NCBI GenBank assembly: GCA_019894975.1
Contig: JAGXNO010000057.1
Coordinates: 1-19,086 of the forward strand
Direction: 5' to 3'
DNA: 19,086 bases
Source of the DNA: Promethearchaeota archaeon
Lineage (GTDB): Archaea > Asgardarchaeota > Lokiarchaeia > Sigyniarchaeales > SOKP01
Shown here: one piece after another, positions 4,351 to 19,086 of the stretch
Layout of the letters: every line of letters starts with the position of its first letter
Position numbering within the stretch: the stretch's first letter is position 1
Translations under genes and position numbers: made by a program
The notes under the pieces: generated by a model
Told to the model about the DNA's origin: nothing
The model's input: the letters and a program-made list of their open reading frames with translations, nothing else
Databases searched by the model: none

Positions 4351-5640
4351 ATAGAACTAACATCAAATGAATCCACATATCGACAATATTTATTCTTCTG
4401 GAGTGGGCAAATGCTTTCCCTTTTTGGGTCAACAGTTGCTTATTTTGTATTAATATGGTGGTTGACAGTTGTAACTGGAAGTGCTACTATACTAGCCGTT
4501 GCCTCATTTTTTACGATTCTTTTATCAACAATATTAATGCCAATTGCGGGGGTATATGCAGATAAATTCAACAGAAAAACTCTTATTCTTATTGTTGATT
4601 AGTCACAAGCGTTAATCACACTTGTAGGAACGATTCTATTTCAATTCAATCTAATGGTCGTTTTAACCGTAGTGATTTTTATGACTGTCCGAAGCTTATT
4701 TCAAGCATTCCATGCACCCGTTGTTGGCGCAATTATGCCATCTATGGTTCCTCCTGAAAAATTAATTCGTATTAATTCTATGAGTTTCCTATTTCTAGGC
4801 GTAATTCAGATCTTTGCCCAATTAGTAGCTTCACTTCTCTGGTTACTATTTCCAGTTCATATAATTCTTTGGGTTGATATCATTACTTTTGTCATAGCGT
4901 TAGTACCACTTATTCTGATAAAAATACCTTCGGTAACAAAAAAATCAATAAATTCTAAGGGAGAAAAAGAAAAAACTTCATTCTTTAAAGATTTTAATAT
5001 AGGTGTAAAAACTTTAAAAGCAGTTCCAGGGCTTTTAATTATTGTTATTATGTCAATGATTATTACTTTTTTGTTAGCACCATTAAAAGTCTTAATGCCT
5101 TTATATGTGTATGGAGTTCATGGTGGAAAAGCAGGACATTACGCATTAGTTTTAACCTTTTTTCAAGGCGGAATCGTATTGGGTGCAGTAATTGCCTCAG
5201 TTAAAAAGAAATGGGATCATAAAGTTAGAGTTCTTTTTATCAATATGGCACTTGCAATGGTCGGATTAGCAATCTTTGGTATTGCTCCGCAAGGGTTATA
5301 TTTCGTAATAAGCATAGGAGCGATATTAACAGGTATAACTCTGCCAATCACAAGTTCATTAACTGCAGTATTTTACCAAACAACAGTCCCACCAGATAAA
5401 ATGGGAAGAGTCTCATCAATTAGTGGTACAATTTCTGCTTCAATTCTCCCAATTGGAACTATTCTCTCAGGACCTTTAGCCGAAATTCTTGGTATTCCTC
5501 TATTATTCTTCTACTGTTCTGTACTAAGTTTAATTGTTATAGCATCGATTTGGATTCTTACCAATATTCGAAAAGTGGATTTTGATAACATAGCCGAAAA
5601 TAAAAGAATATTAAATGAAAAAATAAATAATTTTGAGTAA
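4351..5640 (+). pseudogene. MFS transporter paralog 4, disrupted: ATA at the start position (4351) and in-frame TAG at 4600-4602
   Basis: The leader GGGATAAAAA matches paralog 3 but is followed by ATA. The frame reads IELTSNESTYRQYLFFWSGQMLSLFGS...LIVD*SQALIT... and continues in the same frame into ORF 4654..5640, for 430 codons in total. ORFs 4411..4602 and 4654..5640 are therefore one gene. Confidence 0.85.
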
Positions 5641-6553: not shown

Positions 6554-7069
6554 TCAAATTAACCTAGAATTATTCTTATTATTTTCGCTCCACTTCAAAA
6601 CAGTCTTAGATTTTTTAGGAAATAATTGTTTCATAACTTGTATTGCGGTGTCTTTAACTATAGAATTATCTTTGTCTAAGATACAATTCTCAAGCGTATC
6701 AAACACTTCATTATTCTTTAATTGTAATACTTTAAAAGCTAGGATACTAATTCTACGAGTATTAATATCATCGTTTTTTTCTATGAAGTAAGTTAACAGT
6801 TCAGTAGCTTCTAGATTATTCATTTGATTTGTTGTTACATATTCATAGATTTTAGCTACTGTTAAATCTTTATTAATAAAATCAAGAGCATCTTGATAGA
6901 GGATATTTAGACTATTTAATGATTCTTCAAACTCAGAGGATTTTCTTAAATCAAAGGGACAATCATGATTCTCTGGTATTCGATGTTTACTGCATAATAT
7001 CATTCCGCAAAAAGTACATCTATATGGTATATCATTTATCTTTTCATTACAGAAATAACAGTTAGTCAA
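6554..7069 (-). CDS. AN1-type zinc finger protein with a C-terminal helical (HEAT-like) domain
   Basis: CYFC-x10-CTFCGMILCSKHRIPENHDC matches the zf-AN1 pattern. The remainder looks like amphipathic helices (RRISILAFKVL, VFDTLENCIL, VKDTAIQVMKQLF). TTG start. Confidence 0.8.
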   Translation of the reverse strand: MTNCYFCNEKINDIPYRCTFCGMILCSKHRIPENHDCPFDLRKSSEFEESLNSLNILYQDALDFINKDLTVAKIYEYVTTNQMNNLEATELLTYFIEKNDDINTRRISILAFKVLQLKNNEVFDTLENCILDKDNSIVKDTAIQVMKQLFPKKSKTVLKWSENNKNNSRLI

Positions 7070-7201: not shown

Positions 7202-9601
7202 TCATAAATTATGTTCTAACCTTTCGATTATATCATTTTGTATAGGGGTGCCAAGATCTATGAATGTAGCGTTATAACCACCAACTTTTACAATTAGATC
7301 GTTATAATTTTCAGGATTTTTCTGAGCGTTTCTAAGAGTTTCAGTTGATACTACGGTAGGTTGTAACTGCATTCCACCTGAATCAAAATAACCCTTTAAA
7401 AGGTGCTTGAATTTATTTATATTCTCATCACTTTCAAGATTTTGAGGATGAATTCTGACATTAACCGCAACCCCATTTGTTGCTTGGTCATAATTTAATT
7501 TAGCAATTGAGTTTAATACTGCCGTAATACCATTTCTTTCCACTTTATTAACTGGAGAAAGACTATTTGAAAGAGGTTTGGTTTCTTTTCTACCATCAGC
7601 GGAAGCTCTCGAAAATAGACCCTCAATTACATGTACTCCCATGGAATAAGCTCCTGGATTATAGCGTCCATTTCTTGAACATTTATGTTTTACTACCTCT
7701 GAACAGAATAAATCCCATAGTTCGATTGCTAATTTATCAACTTCTTCTTTATCATTTCCCCATTTATCGTATTTATTAATGAGTTTCTGTCTTAATTCTT
7801 CTTCTCCATTAAAATTAGAATTTAAGATTTCAATGAATTCTGGAAGAGCCATCACTTTTTCTTCATAAATCAAGTTTTTTATATTATAAAATGAGTCTAC
7901 TAAGGTAGCAAATCCATAAGCAGTGATTGAAGAAAAATTATATTTTGCTCCACCCGCAGTATAATCCCTCCCCTTTTCTATGCATCCTTCAATTAAAGCT
8001 GAAACAAATGGTTGGGGAAAGAATTTAATGGTTTCTTCATCACCAACCTTTGCAATTTTAACAGATTTTTCGATATTATAGCGTAATTGGTTGATAAAGG
8101 CATTATATAGCTCTTCATAATTGGTAAAATTAACAGGATCTCCAGTTTCCAAACCACTTATCTGTTTTGTTAGGTTGCAATATCCATTATTCAATGTAAG
8201 TTCAAGAACACCAGGTAAATTTATAAAAATTCGACCTGTGGCAGCAAACGTATTTCCTTGGCTAGAAGGTTCAACACATCCTATTATTGCATAGTTTCGA
8301 GCATCTTCCAAGCTATTTCCTGCTTCTTTCATAGCAGGAATTATTATATCATCATTATAAAAAGCTATTCCCGAAGTACTTTGAAAAACTTTTAATACTT
8401 CTCTTAAGAACCTGTCTGGAGTTTTTTTGTGAACTCTAACTGAAAGATCAGTGGTTAAAGCTTTAATATTCTTATAGGCTTCAAGAAATAGATATGAAAG
8501 CTCATTTGTTGCATCATTTCCTTCTTTATTGACTCCAGAGATTGTTATTGTCTGTGTATTTTGCCCAAGTGCATTTGCAATAGTAGTATAATCTGTTGGT
8601 AATAGAGTTATGTTCCATGTTAATTTTAAATTTAATTCTTCAATTAATTCTAAAGCAAATTCTTTTGTAATAAGCTTGTTTTCTAAATCTATTTTATAAT
8701 ACGGCCATAGGATTTGATCTAGCCTACCTAAGGCAACGACACTTCTCTGATAAATAATATTGATTATATTTTGAGTAAAATGTATTAGTTGGATAGCTTC
8801 ATAAAAAGATTCAGCTGTTCCTATTGCAAATTTTTTCATCATATCTCCAATATTGCTAAGTTCTCTGCTTCTAACCTCGTTTTTCTCCTTTAAAGCCATA
8901 TCATATGCAAGGTCAGAATATCTCTTAGAAAACTGAATAGCTGCCTTATAGTGTATTTTTACTGCTTCATAGAAATCAAATTTTTCTTGAAAATCAGGCT
9001 CATTTTCAATTAATTCTGATTGATGTAATTCAACCTGTTTTATGATCCCCGAATAACCAACTTTGAGAAGTTTCTCATATCCCGCAGATATATGACCCTC
9101 GTTAGTGCCATTAACTATTCCAATATTTGGTGCGGCTGCCTCTATTCTTGCTTTACCAGAGATTAATTTTTCTTCATACATTTTTTGAGGTATGATATTG
9201 CCATATAGAGCCTTTCCTTTCCAAAAAGGTACTATATCCAAAAGTTCATTAATTTCGTTTTCTTCTATAAAAAATGGTTGCAGTTTCCTTTTCGCATATC
9301 TTTTAATTGAAGTTCGTTTATTGAATGTTCCGTCATATGAGTGTAAATCAAGGTTAATTTTTTCTCCCAAATTTTTACTCGTTTCATTCCCAACAAGCAA
9401 TTCATCTTCCCTAATAAATATCGTCATATTTTCCAAAGTATGAGCTAAAGCTTTGGATCGTTTTATGATCTCAGAAGCATCTGGCAATCTTTTATATATC
9501 TCGGTAAAATAACGAATTCGCTCAATACAAAACTCGTATTTACTCATCAACAGATTATTCTTTAATCTCAGTGTTCTTCTACTATTTTTATCTGAAATCA
9601 T
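7202..9601 (-). CDS. Glycyl radical enzyme (PFL-like superfamily, single-Cys GCVEP type; not canonical pyruvate formate-lyase)
   Basis: 799 aa. IREDELLVGN, LGRLDQ, Cys loop IIGCVEP (C442), KWGND, ASADGR, GGMQLQ, and Gly loop LIVKVGGYNATF (G775). Confidence 0.9.
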   Translation of the reverse strand: MISDKNSRRTLRLKNNLLMSKYEFCIERIRYFTEIYKRLPDASEIIKRSKALAHTLENMTIFIREDELLVGNETSKNLGEKINLDLHSYDGTFNKRTSIKRYAKRKLQPFFIEENEINELLDIVPFWKGKALYGNIIPQKMYEEKLISGKARIEAAAPNIGIVNGTNEGHISAGYEKLLKVGYSGIIKQVELHQSELIENEPDFQEKFDFYEAVKIHYKAAIQFSKRYSDLAYDMALKEKNEVRSRELSNIGDMMKKFAIGTAESFYEAIQLIHFTQNIINIIYQRSVVALGRLDQILWPYYKIDLENKLITKEFALELIEELNLKLTWNITLLPTDYTTIANALGQNTQTITISGVNKEGNDATNELSYLFLEAYKNIKALTTDLSVRVHKKTPDRFLREVLKVFQSTSGIAFYNDDIIIPAMKEAGNSLEDARNYAIIGCVEPSSQGNTFAATGRIFINLPGVLELTLNNGYCNLTKQISGLETGDPVNFTNYEELYNAFINQLRYNIEKSVKIAKVGDEETIKFFPQPFVSALIEGCIEKGRDYTAGGAKYNFSSITAYGFATLVDSFYNIKNLIYEEKVMALPEFIEILNSNFNGEEELRQKLINKYDKWGNDKEEVDKLAIELWDLFCSEVVKHKCSRNGRYNPGAYSMGVHVIEGLFSRASADGRKETKPLSNSLSPVNKVERNGITAVLNSIAKLNYDQATNGVAVNVRIHPQNLESDENINKFKHLLKGYFDSGGMQLQPTVVSTETLRNAQKNPENYNDLIVKVGGYNATFIDLGTPIQNDIIERLEHNL

Positions 9602-18091: not shown

Positions 18092-18838
18092 TTAATCAAA
18101 TATTTTATCAATAATGGAATATCCTACAATTTCATCTCTTAAAAAAATACTAAAAGGTAAATCTAATTCTTTATAAGGTTTTACTAGGTTTACAAGCAGA
18201 TCATGTTCTGGTTTGGAAAAAATCTGCTTAAATTCTTCACCTACACCTTCAGAAAATTGATATTGTTGAAGCACAAAACTACCTTTAAATCCCATATTTC
18301 TTAGCAGGTCAATAATATCATTAATATCCTCTGAATTTAATAAGCTCTCTATATAGGTAGTGCGTATTTCAAAGTCTATATCTTGGTGTTTATTTAGAAA
18401 CTCAATAGTTTCCTTGATTTTTTTAAGATCTACATTAACACCCGTAATATTTTTAAGTTTTTCTGGTTCCAAGGGCCCTTTTAAATCTAAAGCAATCCTA
18501 TTGATATATGGTGTAAGTTTTTTGATTACTTCAGGTCTTGAACCGTTGGTATCGATGCTTAAGTATTTGCCAACTTTTTGAATTTCAATACATAATTCAA
18601 GCAAATCATGTTGAAGTGTTGGTTCTCCCCCAGTTATGCTAACACCATTTACCAACTCATTCGTTTTAATAAGATTAATCAATTCGTTAATTTCATATTC
18701 TCTCCCAACTTTAGGTTGTAGAAGATACTTATTATGGCAGAAATTACATTTGAAATTACATCCTACCGTAAAGATTACCATTGCAGACTTATGTGGAATA
18801 TCCACTGTTGAAATATCAATAATTCCCCCAATTTTCAT
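18092..18838 (-). CDS. nrdG: Radical SAM glycyl-radical activating enzyme, anaerobic ribonucleoside-triphosphate reductase activase (NrdG2-like)
   Basis: MKIGGIIDISTVDIP...VIFTVGCNFKCNFCHN (CxxxCxxC), GVSITGGEPTLQ, IDTNGSRPE, IALDLKGP, FEIRTT, VLQQY; no inserted ferredoxin domain. Confidence 0.8.
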   Translation of the reverse strand: MKIGGIIDISTVDIPHKSAMVIFTVGCNFKCNFCHNKYLLQPKVGREYEINELINLIKTNELVNGVSITGGEPTLQHDLLELCIEIQKVGKYLSIDTNGSRPEVIKKLTPYINRIALDLKGPLEPEKLKNITGVNVDLKKIKETIEFLNKHQDIDFEIRTTYIESLLNSEDINDIIDLLRNMGFKGSFVLQQYQFSEGVGEEFKQIFSKPEHDLLVNLVKPYKELDLPFSIFLRDEIVGYSIIDKIFD

Positions 18839-18969
18839 ATTAATCCCTTTTTAATAGTTTTATGTAATTATTTAATTTCTTAATCCTTTAAAAATTGAAC
18901 TGAAATAGTGGAAAAGCTTACTAATTGAAAGAAAAAATAAAAATAAGTATTAAAAAATATATTTATTAT

Positions 18970-19086
18970 TTAGATCCCGCCTGCTTGTGTAGCCATAACC
19001 GTGATTACATCCTTTTTAGGATGAATTCCAATTTTTGCAAACTTTAATTGGTCCGGTAAAACTTTCCCTTTGAATATAAATTGAAT
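18970..19086 (-). CDS. Ubiquitin/SUMO-like beta-grasp protein or domain, C-terminal 38 aa (5'-truncated by the window)
   Basis: Manual translation gives IQFIFKGKVLPDQLKFAKIGIHPKKDVITVMATQAGGI-TAA. It has the ubiquitin-type (L/F)IFxGKxLxD segment and a terminal strand followed by a di-glycine. Not in the ORF track. Confidence 0.8.
   Translation of the reverse strand: MQFIFKGKVLPDQLKFAKIGIHPKKDVITVMATQAGGI

What the first reader, a model, noticed from the sequence alone, without database searches (positions are those of the whole stretch)
18970..19086. SUMO-flavoured ubiquitin-like protein ending in QAGG plus one capping residue
Seen in sequence: the minus strand reads ...IQFIFKGKVLPDQLKFAKIGIHPKKDVITVMATQAGG-I-stop. 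Established: ubiquitin has LIFAGKQLEDG...LRLRGG and SUMO1 ends DVIEVYQEQTGG. Ubls are often made as precursors whose post-GG residues are removed by a protease before E1 activation. Asgard archaea encode ubiquitin systems, whereas typical archaeal SAMP/MoaD proteins end in a PPVxGG-type motif. Inference: a eukaryote-type conjugatable modifier whose DVIxV...QxGG tail resembles SUMO more than ubiquitin, needing removal of one Ile. E1/E2/E3/JAB genes may lie beyond the right edge. Only 38 aa are visible.
Basis: partly seen in the sequence, partly recalled or inferred. Interest (0 to 1): 0.75.

Follow-up and report, generated by a model that had tools for sequence, protein, structure and literature searches.

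The report
Known Lokiarchaeal ubiquitin, probable contig mis-join
The fragment is the tail of the already published ubiquitin of Loki-type Asgard archaea, not a SUMO. It probably sits on a mis-joined contig tip, but in some relatives the same gene is interrupted by tRNA-type introns that would have to be spliced out of the mRNA.

Summary
The reading frame is real. Its 38 residues match residues 47-84 of Lokiarch_37670|Ub (Hatano 2022 supplement) exactly. The family is an 84-aa, class-wide Lokiarchaeia ubiquitin (PF00240) with Ile44/Gly47/Lys48 equivalents. SUMO membership is not supported. The Gly-Gly is conserved, but the cap is not: none in 35 of 128 genes, one residue in 70, longer in 23.

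No conjugation genes are expected past the edge. Two same-strain assemblies match the window up to 18849, then continue into an unrelated 297-aa gene. So 18850-19086 is probably a mis-joined tip from a congener (about 65%) or a strain-level insertion. The genome's syntenic copy is on C55; E1, E2, RING and JAB genes lie on other contigs.

Side result, not in the window copy: 15 orthologues carry 29-31-nt bulge-helix-bulge inserts at four sites, seven breaking the frame, with compensatory pairing. These are probably EndA-spliced mRNA introns; no spliced RNA was seen. The scan had already noted this ubiquitin, its ATT starts, and such introns in Loki E1/E2 genes on other DNA; my look-ups showed none in the ubiquitin gene itself.

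The parts
18973..19086 (-). Codons 47-84 of a Lokiarchaeia ubiquitin gene (strands 3-5, Ile44/Gly47/Lys48 equivalents, ATQAGG, cap Ile); 5' half cut off by the contig end
18970..18972 (-). Stop codon TAA
18973..18975 (-). Single capping residue (Ile, ATC) after Gly-Gly; variable in the family
18850..19086 (.). 237-bp contig tip not shared with two same-strain assemblies; probable mis-join or strain-level insertion, breakpoint between 18849 and 18850
18850..18969 (-). AT-rich spacer with a T-rich tract right after the ubiquitin stop (terminator-like, by eye only)
18092..18838 (-). Radical SAM gene (PF04055, Fer4_12), found in 52 of 53 genus members; not part of the ubiquitin system; normally preceded by a 297-aa gene

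Best explanation
The fragment is the 3' half of a gene for the conserved stand-alone ubiquitin of Lokiarchaeia (the Lokiarch_37670 family).

Shown: beta-grasp fold, PF00240 membership, a conserved ATQAGG end, strong purifying selection, and a variable post-GG cap.

Inferred mechanism: (1) a JAB/Rpn11-type metalloprotease trims the cap; (2) the stand-alone E1 and E2 of the C142 type activate and transfer it in trans, probably with a RING E3; (3) conjugates are read by UEV/Vps23 (ESCRT-I) and perhaps the proteasome.

This particular copy most likely comes from a co-occurring congener and was joined to the contig tip at the start of the radical SAM gene. The genome's own syntenic copy is G000:C55 (L033:10192-10446).
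For: 38/38 identity to residues 47-84 of Lokiarch_37670|Ub; that paper reports a Y2H interaction between Loki ubiquitin and a UEV protein (PMC9192718). Family match in 137 of 161 class genomes. AF2 model pLDDT 92 with five strands and one main helix; VIA Z 11-11.8 to Ub, UBL and ISG15 chains. ATQAGG in 127 of 128 genes; cap absent in 35, one residue in 70, longer in 23; GG-plus-44 and GG-plus-63-residue fusions P0014 and P0097. In G039 and G045 the gene lies beside an E1 that is 64-67% identical to the C142 E1 (36% to the C84 E1); in G049 it lies beside an E2 66% identical to the C142 E2. The C84 operon has its own, different Ubl ending Ala-Gly, 16% identical. JAB and RING genes are in the genome. 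Post-GG trimming by Rpn11 is shown for Caldiarchaeum (PMC5654768, PMC6043591). Mis-join: L238 and L239 match the window over 6747 nt (1 mismatch) and 910 nt (0 mismatches) but diverge at 18850; their upstream 297-aa gene precedes the radical SAM gene in 21 of 24 relatives, and none of the 24 has ubiquitin there. The fragment is only 84% identical in DNA to the C55 copy. Bin contamination is 8.55%.
Against: I found no report of conjugation or processing tested for this family. The E1/E2 pairing rests on three genomes' neighbourhoods. The basic RLRGG tail that eukaryotic E1 reads (own knowledge) is absent. Several genomes hold two or more copies, so a true second copy is possible. The donor of the tip was not found: best DNA match 87%. 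No read-level test of the junction was possible.
Confidence: 0.7

Rival explanations
1. The copy is a real second ubiquitin gene, inserted or recombined in front of the radical SAM gene in this strain, displacing the usual 297-aa neighbour.
For: Several relatives have two or more copies, some away from the winged-helix gene. The spacer reads like a terminator followed by an intact ribosome-binding site. Only 11 nt upstream of the radical SAM ATG are shared with the other assemblies.
Against: Two assemblies that are 99.98-100% identical over the flank lack it. The arrangement is absent from 24 relatives. The segment ends at the contig end after 237 bp, and the displaced 6 kb is missing from the bin.
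Confidence: 0.3
2. It is a SUMO-type modifier, or a SUMO ancestor, distinct from ubiquitin.
For: The QxGG tail resembles SUMO1's QTGG, and one homologue ends SQTGG. 28 of 38 members weakly hit Rad60-SLD (best E 7e-6). SUMO1 is among the structural matches (Z 10.4).
Against: PF00240 scores higher (38 of 38 members, best E 3e-11). The profile ranks Ub and Get5/Rad23 UBLs above SUMO1. Ile50, Gly53 and Lys54 (Ub Ile44, Gly47, Lys48) are invariant. There is no N-terminal arm. The authors treat it as ubiquitin and report UEV binding.
Confidence: 0.07
3. It is not conjugated to proteins: it acts as a sulfur carrier or a free binding module (SAMP/MoaD/Urm1-like, or UBL5-like).
For: The gene usually stands alone. 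A MoeB-type E1 lies about 2-10 kb away in some genomes. Top sequence hits include non-conjugated UBL domains.
Against: No ThiS, MoaD or Urm1 family is hit by any of 38 members. The genome has separate small proteins ending in GG with MoaD-like tails. E1 and E2 orthologues are adjacent in three genomes. A conserved GG before a free-varying cap fits processing and adenylation.
Confidence: 0.12

Closest known systems
Lokiarchaeum GC14_75 ubiquitin Lokiarch_37670 (Hatano et al. 2022, PMC9192718, Supplementary Data 1)
   Same: All 38 visible residues are identical; both are GG precursors.
   Different: The published cap is five residues (ISIIH), this one is a single Ile. This copy is truncated and lies off the usual locus.
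Caldiarchaeum subterraneum pro-ubiquitin with Rpn11, E1, E2 and small RING (PMC5654768, PMC6043591)
   Same: Ubiquitin-fold precursor trimmed after Gly-Gly; the same enzyme classes are present in this genome.
   Different: There the parts form an operon and were reconstituted in vitro. Here the gene stands alone, the cap is 0 to about 60 residues, and a second Ala-Gly Ubl occupies the operon.
Eukaryotic SUMO
   Same: Beta-grasp fold, QxGG end, precursor form.
   Different: No N-terminal arm; Ub-type Ile44/Lys48 positions; much weaker sequence match; no Ulp/SENP protease found.
cbf5 pre-mRNA BHB intron of Crenarchaeota (PMC2738675) and the Haloferax HVO_1309 5'-UTR intron (PMC7714728) - applies to the orthologues only
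   Same: Short insert in an mRNA bounded by a bulge-helix-bulge motif, with the cut after the second bulge base.
   Different: Four different sites in one 84-codon Asgard gene; splicing not observed here; the window copy has no insert in its visible codons.

Membership tests
Ubiquitin family (PF00240) / Lokiarch_37670 orthologues | Pfam PF00240 above cut-off | tested here: met
   Full-length P0002 scores 36.7 bits against a cut-off of 25.4; 38 of 38 members hit. The fragment alone scores 22.1 bits.
Ubiquitin family (PF00240) / Lokiarch_37670 orthologues | Five-stranded beta-grasp fold | tested here: met
   AF2 pLDDT 92; Z 11.1-11.8, rmsd about 2 A over 73-78 residues. Tested on the C55 copy, because the window lacks the N-terminal half.
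Ubiquitin family (PF00240) / Lokiarch_37670 orthologues | Conserved C-terminal Gly-Gly | tested here: met
   G82 invariant and G83 at least 90% conserved; ATQAGG in 127 of 128 genes.
Ubiquitin family (PF00240) / Lokiarch_37670 orthologues | Ile44 patch centre, Gly47, Lys48 equivalents | tested here: met
   I50, G53 and K54 are invariant; Ub numbering from own knowledge.
Ubiquitin family (PF00240) / Lokiarch_37670 orthologues | Basic RLR tail before GG (eukaryotic Ub and NEDD8) | tested here: not met
   The tail is ATQAGG.
Ubiquitin family (PF00240) / Lokiarch_37670 orthologues | E1, E2, RING and JAB genes in the genome | tested here: met
   all on other contigs.
Ubiquitin family (PF00240) / Lokiarch_37670 orthologues | Covalent conjugation through an E1/E2 thioester | not testable with these tools
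   Needs biochemistry.
SUMO | Closer to SUMO/Rad60-SLD than to ubiquitin | tested here: not met
   P0002 scores 13.7 bits on PF11976 (cut-off 23.8) and 36.7 on PF00240; SUMO1 E 0.017.
SUMO | Flexible N-terminal arm | tested here: not met
   Strand 1 starts at residue 2 in orthologues.
SUMO | Ulp/SENP (C48) maturation protease | tested here: inconclusive
   PF02902 not found in a 95% complete bin.
SUMO | Structural preference for SUMO | tested here: inconclusive
   SUMO1 Z 10.4 against 11-11.8 for Ub/UBL chains; close to tied.
SAMP/MoaD/ThiS/Urm1 | Hit to ThiS, MoaD or Urm1 profiles; PPVxGG-type tail | tested here: not met
   None among the 14 families hit by 38 members; tail is ATQAGG.
UFM1 | Pfam Ufm1 hit; single Gly (VG) end | tested here: not met
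   No Ufm1 hit at E 0.1; ends in GG.
Archaeal BHB (EndA) mRNA intron - orthologues only | Two 3-nt bulges around a 4-bp helix, flanked by exon and intron helices | tested here: met
   Site nt 223: central helix 4/4 in 11 of 12 genes; site nt 182: 4/4; sites nt 210 and nt 240: 3/4 with a weak exon helix. A full motif arises in 0.3% of random positions.
Archaeal BHB (EndA) mRNA intron - orthologues only | Removal at the BHB register restores the conserved protein | tested here: met
   The BHB register is, or ties for, the top-scoring register in every full-length case.
Archaeal BHB (EndA) mRNA intron - orthologues only | Compensatory base changes | tested here: met
   88.2% of cells paired and 20 two-sided changes; 0 of 500 shuffles reach this; slid controls 35-54%. 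The sequences are related, so this is not a probability.
Archaeal BHB (EndA) mRNA intron - orthologues only | Spliced transcript observed | not tested
   No RNA run was laid on an intron-bearing gene.
Archaeal BHB (EndA) mRNA intron - orthologues only | Intron in the window copy | tested here: not met
   Codons 47-84 are uninterrupted; codons 1-46 are not visible.

The most novel reading that the evidence does not exclude
The ubiquitin gene of Lokiarchaeia has gained tRNA-type (BHB) introns at four or more separate sites. In lineages whose only detected copy carries a stop-containing intron (G033, G096, G039), no conjugatable ubiquitin can be made without EndA/RtcB-type mRNA splicing. With the scan's notes on E1 and E2 genes, much of an Asgard ubiquitin cascade would depend on mRNA splicing. 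This concerns orthologues, not the window's copy.
Probability: 0.85. Interest if true: 0.65.

Novelty: already known. Interest (0 to 1): 0.3.

Why it matters
The finding as posed is ordinary: a published Asgard ubiquitin, with no sign of a SUMO branch or a hidden operon, on a contig tip that is probably an assembly product. Two things are still useful. First, gene neighbourhoods point to the stand-alone C142-type E1/E2 as this ubiquitin's partners, separate from the Ala-Gly operon, which makes two parallel conjugation systems in Lokiarchaeia testable. Second, orthologues carry BHB inserts that most likely are spliced mRNA introns. The papers I could search confirm such splicing inside an archaeal coding sequence only for cbf5. 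An 84-codon, near-invariant gene with both intron-bearing and intron-free alleles is a compact test substrate for mRNA splicing and intron gain in the archaea closest to eukaryotes.

Tried and rejected
- Extending the contig: the 5' half is not in the bin.
- Sequencing runs: no RNA holder listed.
- Donor of the tip: no exact match in genome contigs; best 87% among 161 class genomes; no viral contig encodes a relative; the 1831-aa neighbour gave no further assemblies.
- An intron covariance model found only the two known loci in five genomes, with no copies in tRNAs or in G000.
- A strict genome-wide BHB scan of G000 gave 369 motifs and one unconvincing ORF-joining case. A protein-level scan found no insertion in G000 over about 224 kb of covered coding DNA.
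- P0097 and P0014 looked frame-broken but are plain C-terminal fusions.
- The split MFS gene in the window is a single TAG, not an intron.
- A UFM1 resemblance seen by eye was not supported.
- The structure search cannot separate Ub from SUMO.
- No complex prediction was run (enzyme-substrate case, low value). No phylogeny was built, so the number of independent gains at site nt 223 is unknown.

Full report
Observation. The minus strand of 18970-19086 encodes the 38 residues quoted, ending ATQAGG-I-stop. The window is all of contig C128 of a 3.9-Mb bin (95% complete, 8.55% contaminated), so the gene is cut by the assembly end. Homologues are named Lokiarchaeota or Promethearchaeota by their sources. 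The fragment hits Pfam ubiquitin and differs from orthologues almost only at synonymous sites, 14-18 against 0-1. It comes from a gene under selection.

What the protein is. Relatives encode a full 83-86-aa protein; 137 of 161 genomes of the class have it. Outside the class only weak matches in one family were found among 400 phylum genomes. This bin has a complete copy on C55 (P0002, 97% identical over the overlap, cap Arg). P0002 passes the PF00240 cut-off and folds as a five-stranded beta-grasp, pLDDT 92, matching Ub, UBL and ISG15 chains at Z 11-11.8. An earlier scan note said the protein was published. I checked: Supplementary Data 1 of Hatano et al. 2022 lists Lokiarch_37670|Ub, whose residues 47-84 are identical to the window's 38. 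The paper reports a yeast two-hybrid interaction of Loki ubiquitin with a UEV protein.

SUMO or ubiquitin. The QxGG tail is the only SUMO-like trait. All 38 aligned members hit PF00240 (best E 3e-11); 28 hit Rad60-SLD weakly. A family profile ranks polyubiquitin and Get5/Rad23 UBLs above SUMO1, which scores E 0.017. The positions equal to Ub Ile44, Gly47 and Lys48 are invariant. There is no N-terminal arm, and no C48 protease was found in the bin. The structure search does not separate the two.

The cap. Of 128 distinct genes, 127 end ATQAGG; 35 stop there, 70 add one residue of eleven kinds, and 23 add more. Two homologues carry 44- and 63-residue extensions. A fixed GG before a free-varying tail fits trimming after GG, as shown for Caldiarchaeum pro-ubiquitin and Rpn11. 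That this happens here is inference.

Machinery. The bin has an operon on C84 with E1, E2, JAB and a different Ubl ending Ala-Gly (16% identical to P0002), a second E1/E2 pair on C142, further JABs and four RING genes. Among 167 loci of this family, two (G039, G045) have an E1 beside the gene that is 64-67% identical to the C142 E1, and one (G049) has an E2 66% identical to the C142 E2. The C142 pair is therefore the likely partner (inference). The usual neighbour is a divergent winged-helix gene, in 91 of 128 loci.

What lies past the edge. Two ENA assemblies encode the identical radical SAM protein. They match the window over 6747 nt with one mismatch and over 910 nt with none, but diverge 11 nt upstream of its ATG, at 18850. 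There they continue into a 297-aa gene that also precedes the radical SAM gene in 21 of 24 relatives; none of those has ubiquitin there, and that 6 kb is missing from this bin. The fragment is 84% identical in DNA to the C55 copy and at best 87% to any held genome. I read 18850-19086 as a tip from a co-occurring congener joined at the start of the radical SAM gene (about 65%), or a strain-level insertion (about 30%).

Side result in orthologues: introns. Many homologues have a variable ten-residue insert at one site. Their DNA shows 29-31-nt inserts at four positions: nt 223 (12 distinct genes), nt 182, nt 210 and nt 240. Seven of the 15 contain an in-frame stop or shift the frame while the downstream ATQAGG stays intact; in G033, G096 and G039 this is the only copy detected. 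The register that restores the consensus protein is also the one that forms a bulge-helix-bulge. At nt 223 the central helix is TCAT/GTGA, TTAT/ATAA or TAAT/ATTG, tracking synonymous changes in the exon. On ten 30-nt cases 88% of cells pair, with 20 two-sided changes, above all 500 shuffles and all slid controls; a full motif occurs at 0.3% of random sites. The nt 210 and nt 240 motifs are relaxed. A tRNA-splicing endonuclease gene lies 3-4 kb from the canonical locus. Similar inserts were found in a Roadblock gene of G096 and a hydrolase-like gene of G091, so the trait is not limited to ubiquitin. Papers found confirm coding-sequence splicing only for cbf5, plus one 5'-UTR case; a 2026 Asgard tRNA-intron preprint does not mention mRNA. 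The scan had already noted such introns in Loki E1, E2, uL11 and other genes. No spliced RNA was seen here, and the window's visible codons have no insert.

Side result: start codons. 51 of 128 genes have ATT, ACG or ATA where others have ATG, usually with an in-frame stop one or two codons upstream and an SD-like GGTGTGA. The window copy's start is not visible. Earlier scan notes report the same.

Verdict. Observation confirmed; interpretation partly supported. The protein is already known and is a ubiquitin, not a SUMO; its position in this window is probably an assembly artefact. Interest 0.3, nearly all of it from the introns in relatives.

Noticed in passing
L072:4224-4253, L079:3224-3254, L081:1656-1685, L082:6450-6479, L085:3387-3417, L083:5189-5218, L102:507-535 and others: 29-31-nt bulge-helix-bulge inserts at four sites of the orthologous ubiquitin gene; seven of 15 break the frame; probable EndA-spliced mRNA introns.
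   Followed up: yes
L004-L030 and other orthologues, codon 1: About 40% of orthologues start at ATT, ACG or ATA behind an SD-like motif, so gene callers truncate or miss them.
   Followed up: partly
L199:15406-15436 (G096) and L088:396-428 (G091): 31-nt frameshifting BHB insert in a Roadblock/LC7 gene; 33-nt BHB insert in an alpha/beta-hydrolase-like gene (family by eye).
   Followed up: partly
L095, near 5022 (G139): 30-nt stop-containing hairpin insert in a long coiled-coil gene; central helix only 2 of 4, so a relaxed BHB at best.
   Followed up: no
L183:1501-1941 (P0097) and L184:404-787 (P0014): Ubiquitin-GG fused to 63 and 44 further residues. L183 has co-directional small genes and an endonuclease VII domain gene, which looks virus- or element-like.
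   Followed up: partly
window 4355-5640 (+): The fourth of four tandem MFS genes is interrupted by a single in-frame TAG at 4600-4602 with no insertion: a nonsense change or read-through.
   Followed up: partly
window 12131-17626 (+): 1831-aa predicted membrane protein joining SBP_bac_5, a beta-helix, a periplasmic binding domain and a cytoplasmic TIR_2 domain: a receptor-like architecture.
   Followed up: no
window 17761-18030 (+): Start-less remnant 42% identical to the C-terminal part of the 1831-aa protein.
   Followed up: no
window 6554-7069 (-): AN1-type zinc finger (PF01428) with HEAT-like repeats, a eukaryote-like domain often tied to ubiquitin pathways (own knowledge).
   Followed up: no
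window 7202-9601 (-) and 18092-18838 (-): PFL-like glycyl radical enzyme, and a radical SAM protein 8.5 kb away that may or may not be its activase.
   Followed up: no
L211 (G000:C84:46500-54000); also contigs C26 and C162: Operon with a 111-aa Ubl ending Ala-Gly, E1, E2, JAB and two further Ub-domain genes; two near-identical extra Ala-Gly Ubl copies elsewhere in the bin.
   Followed up: partly
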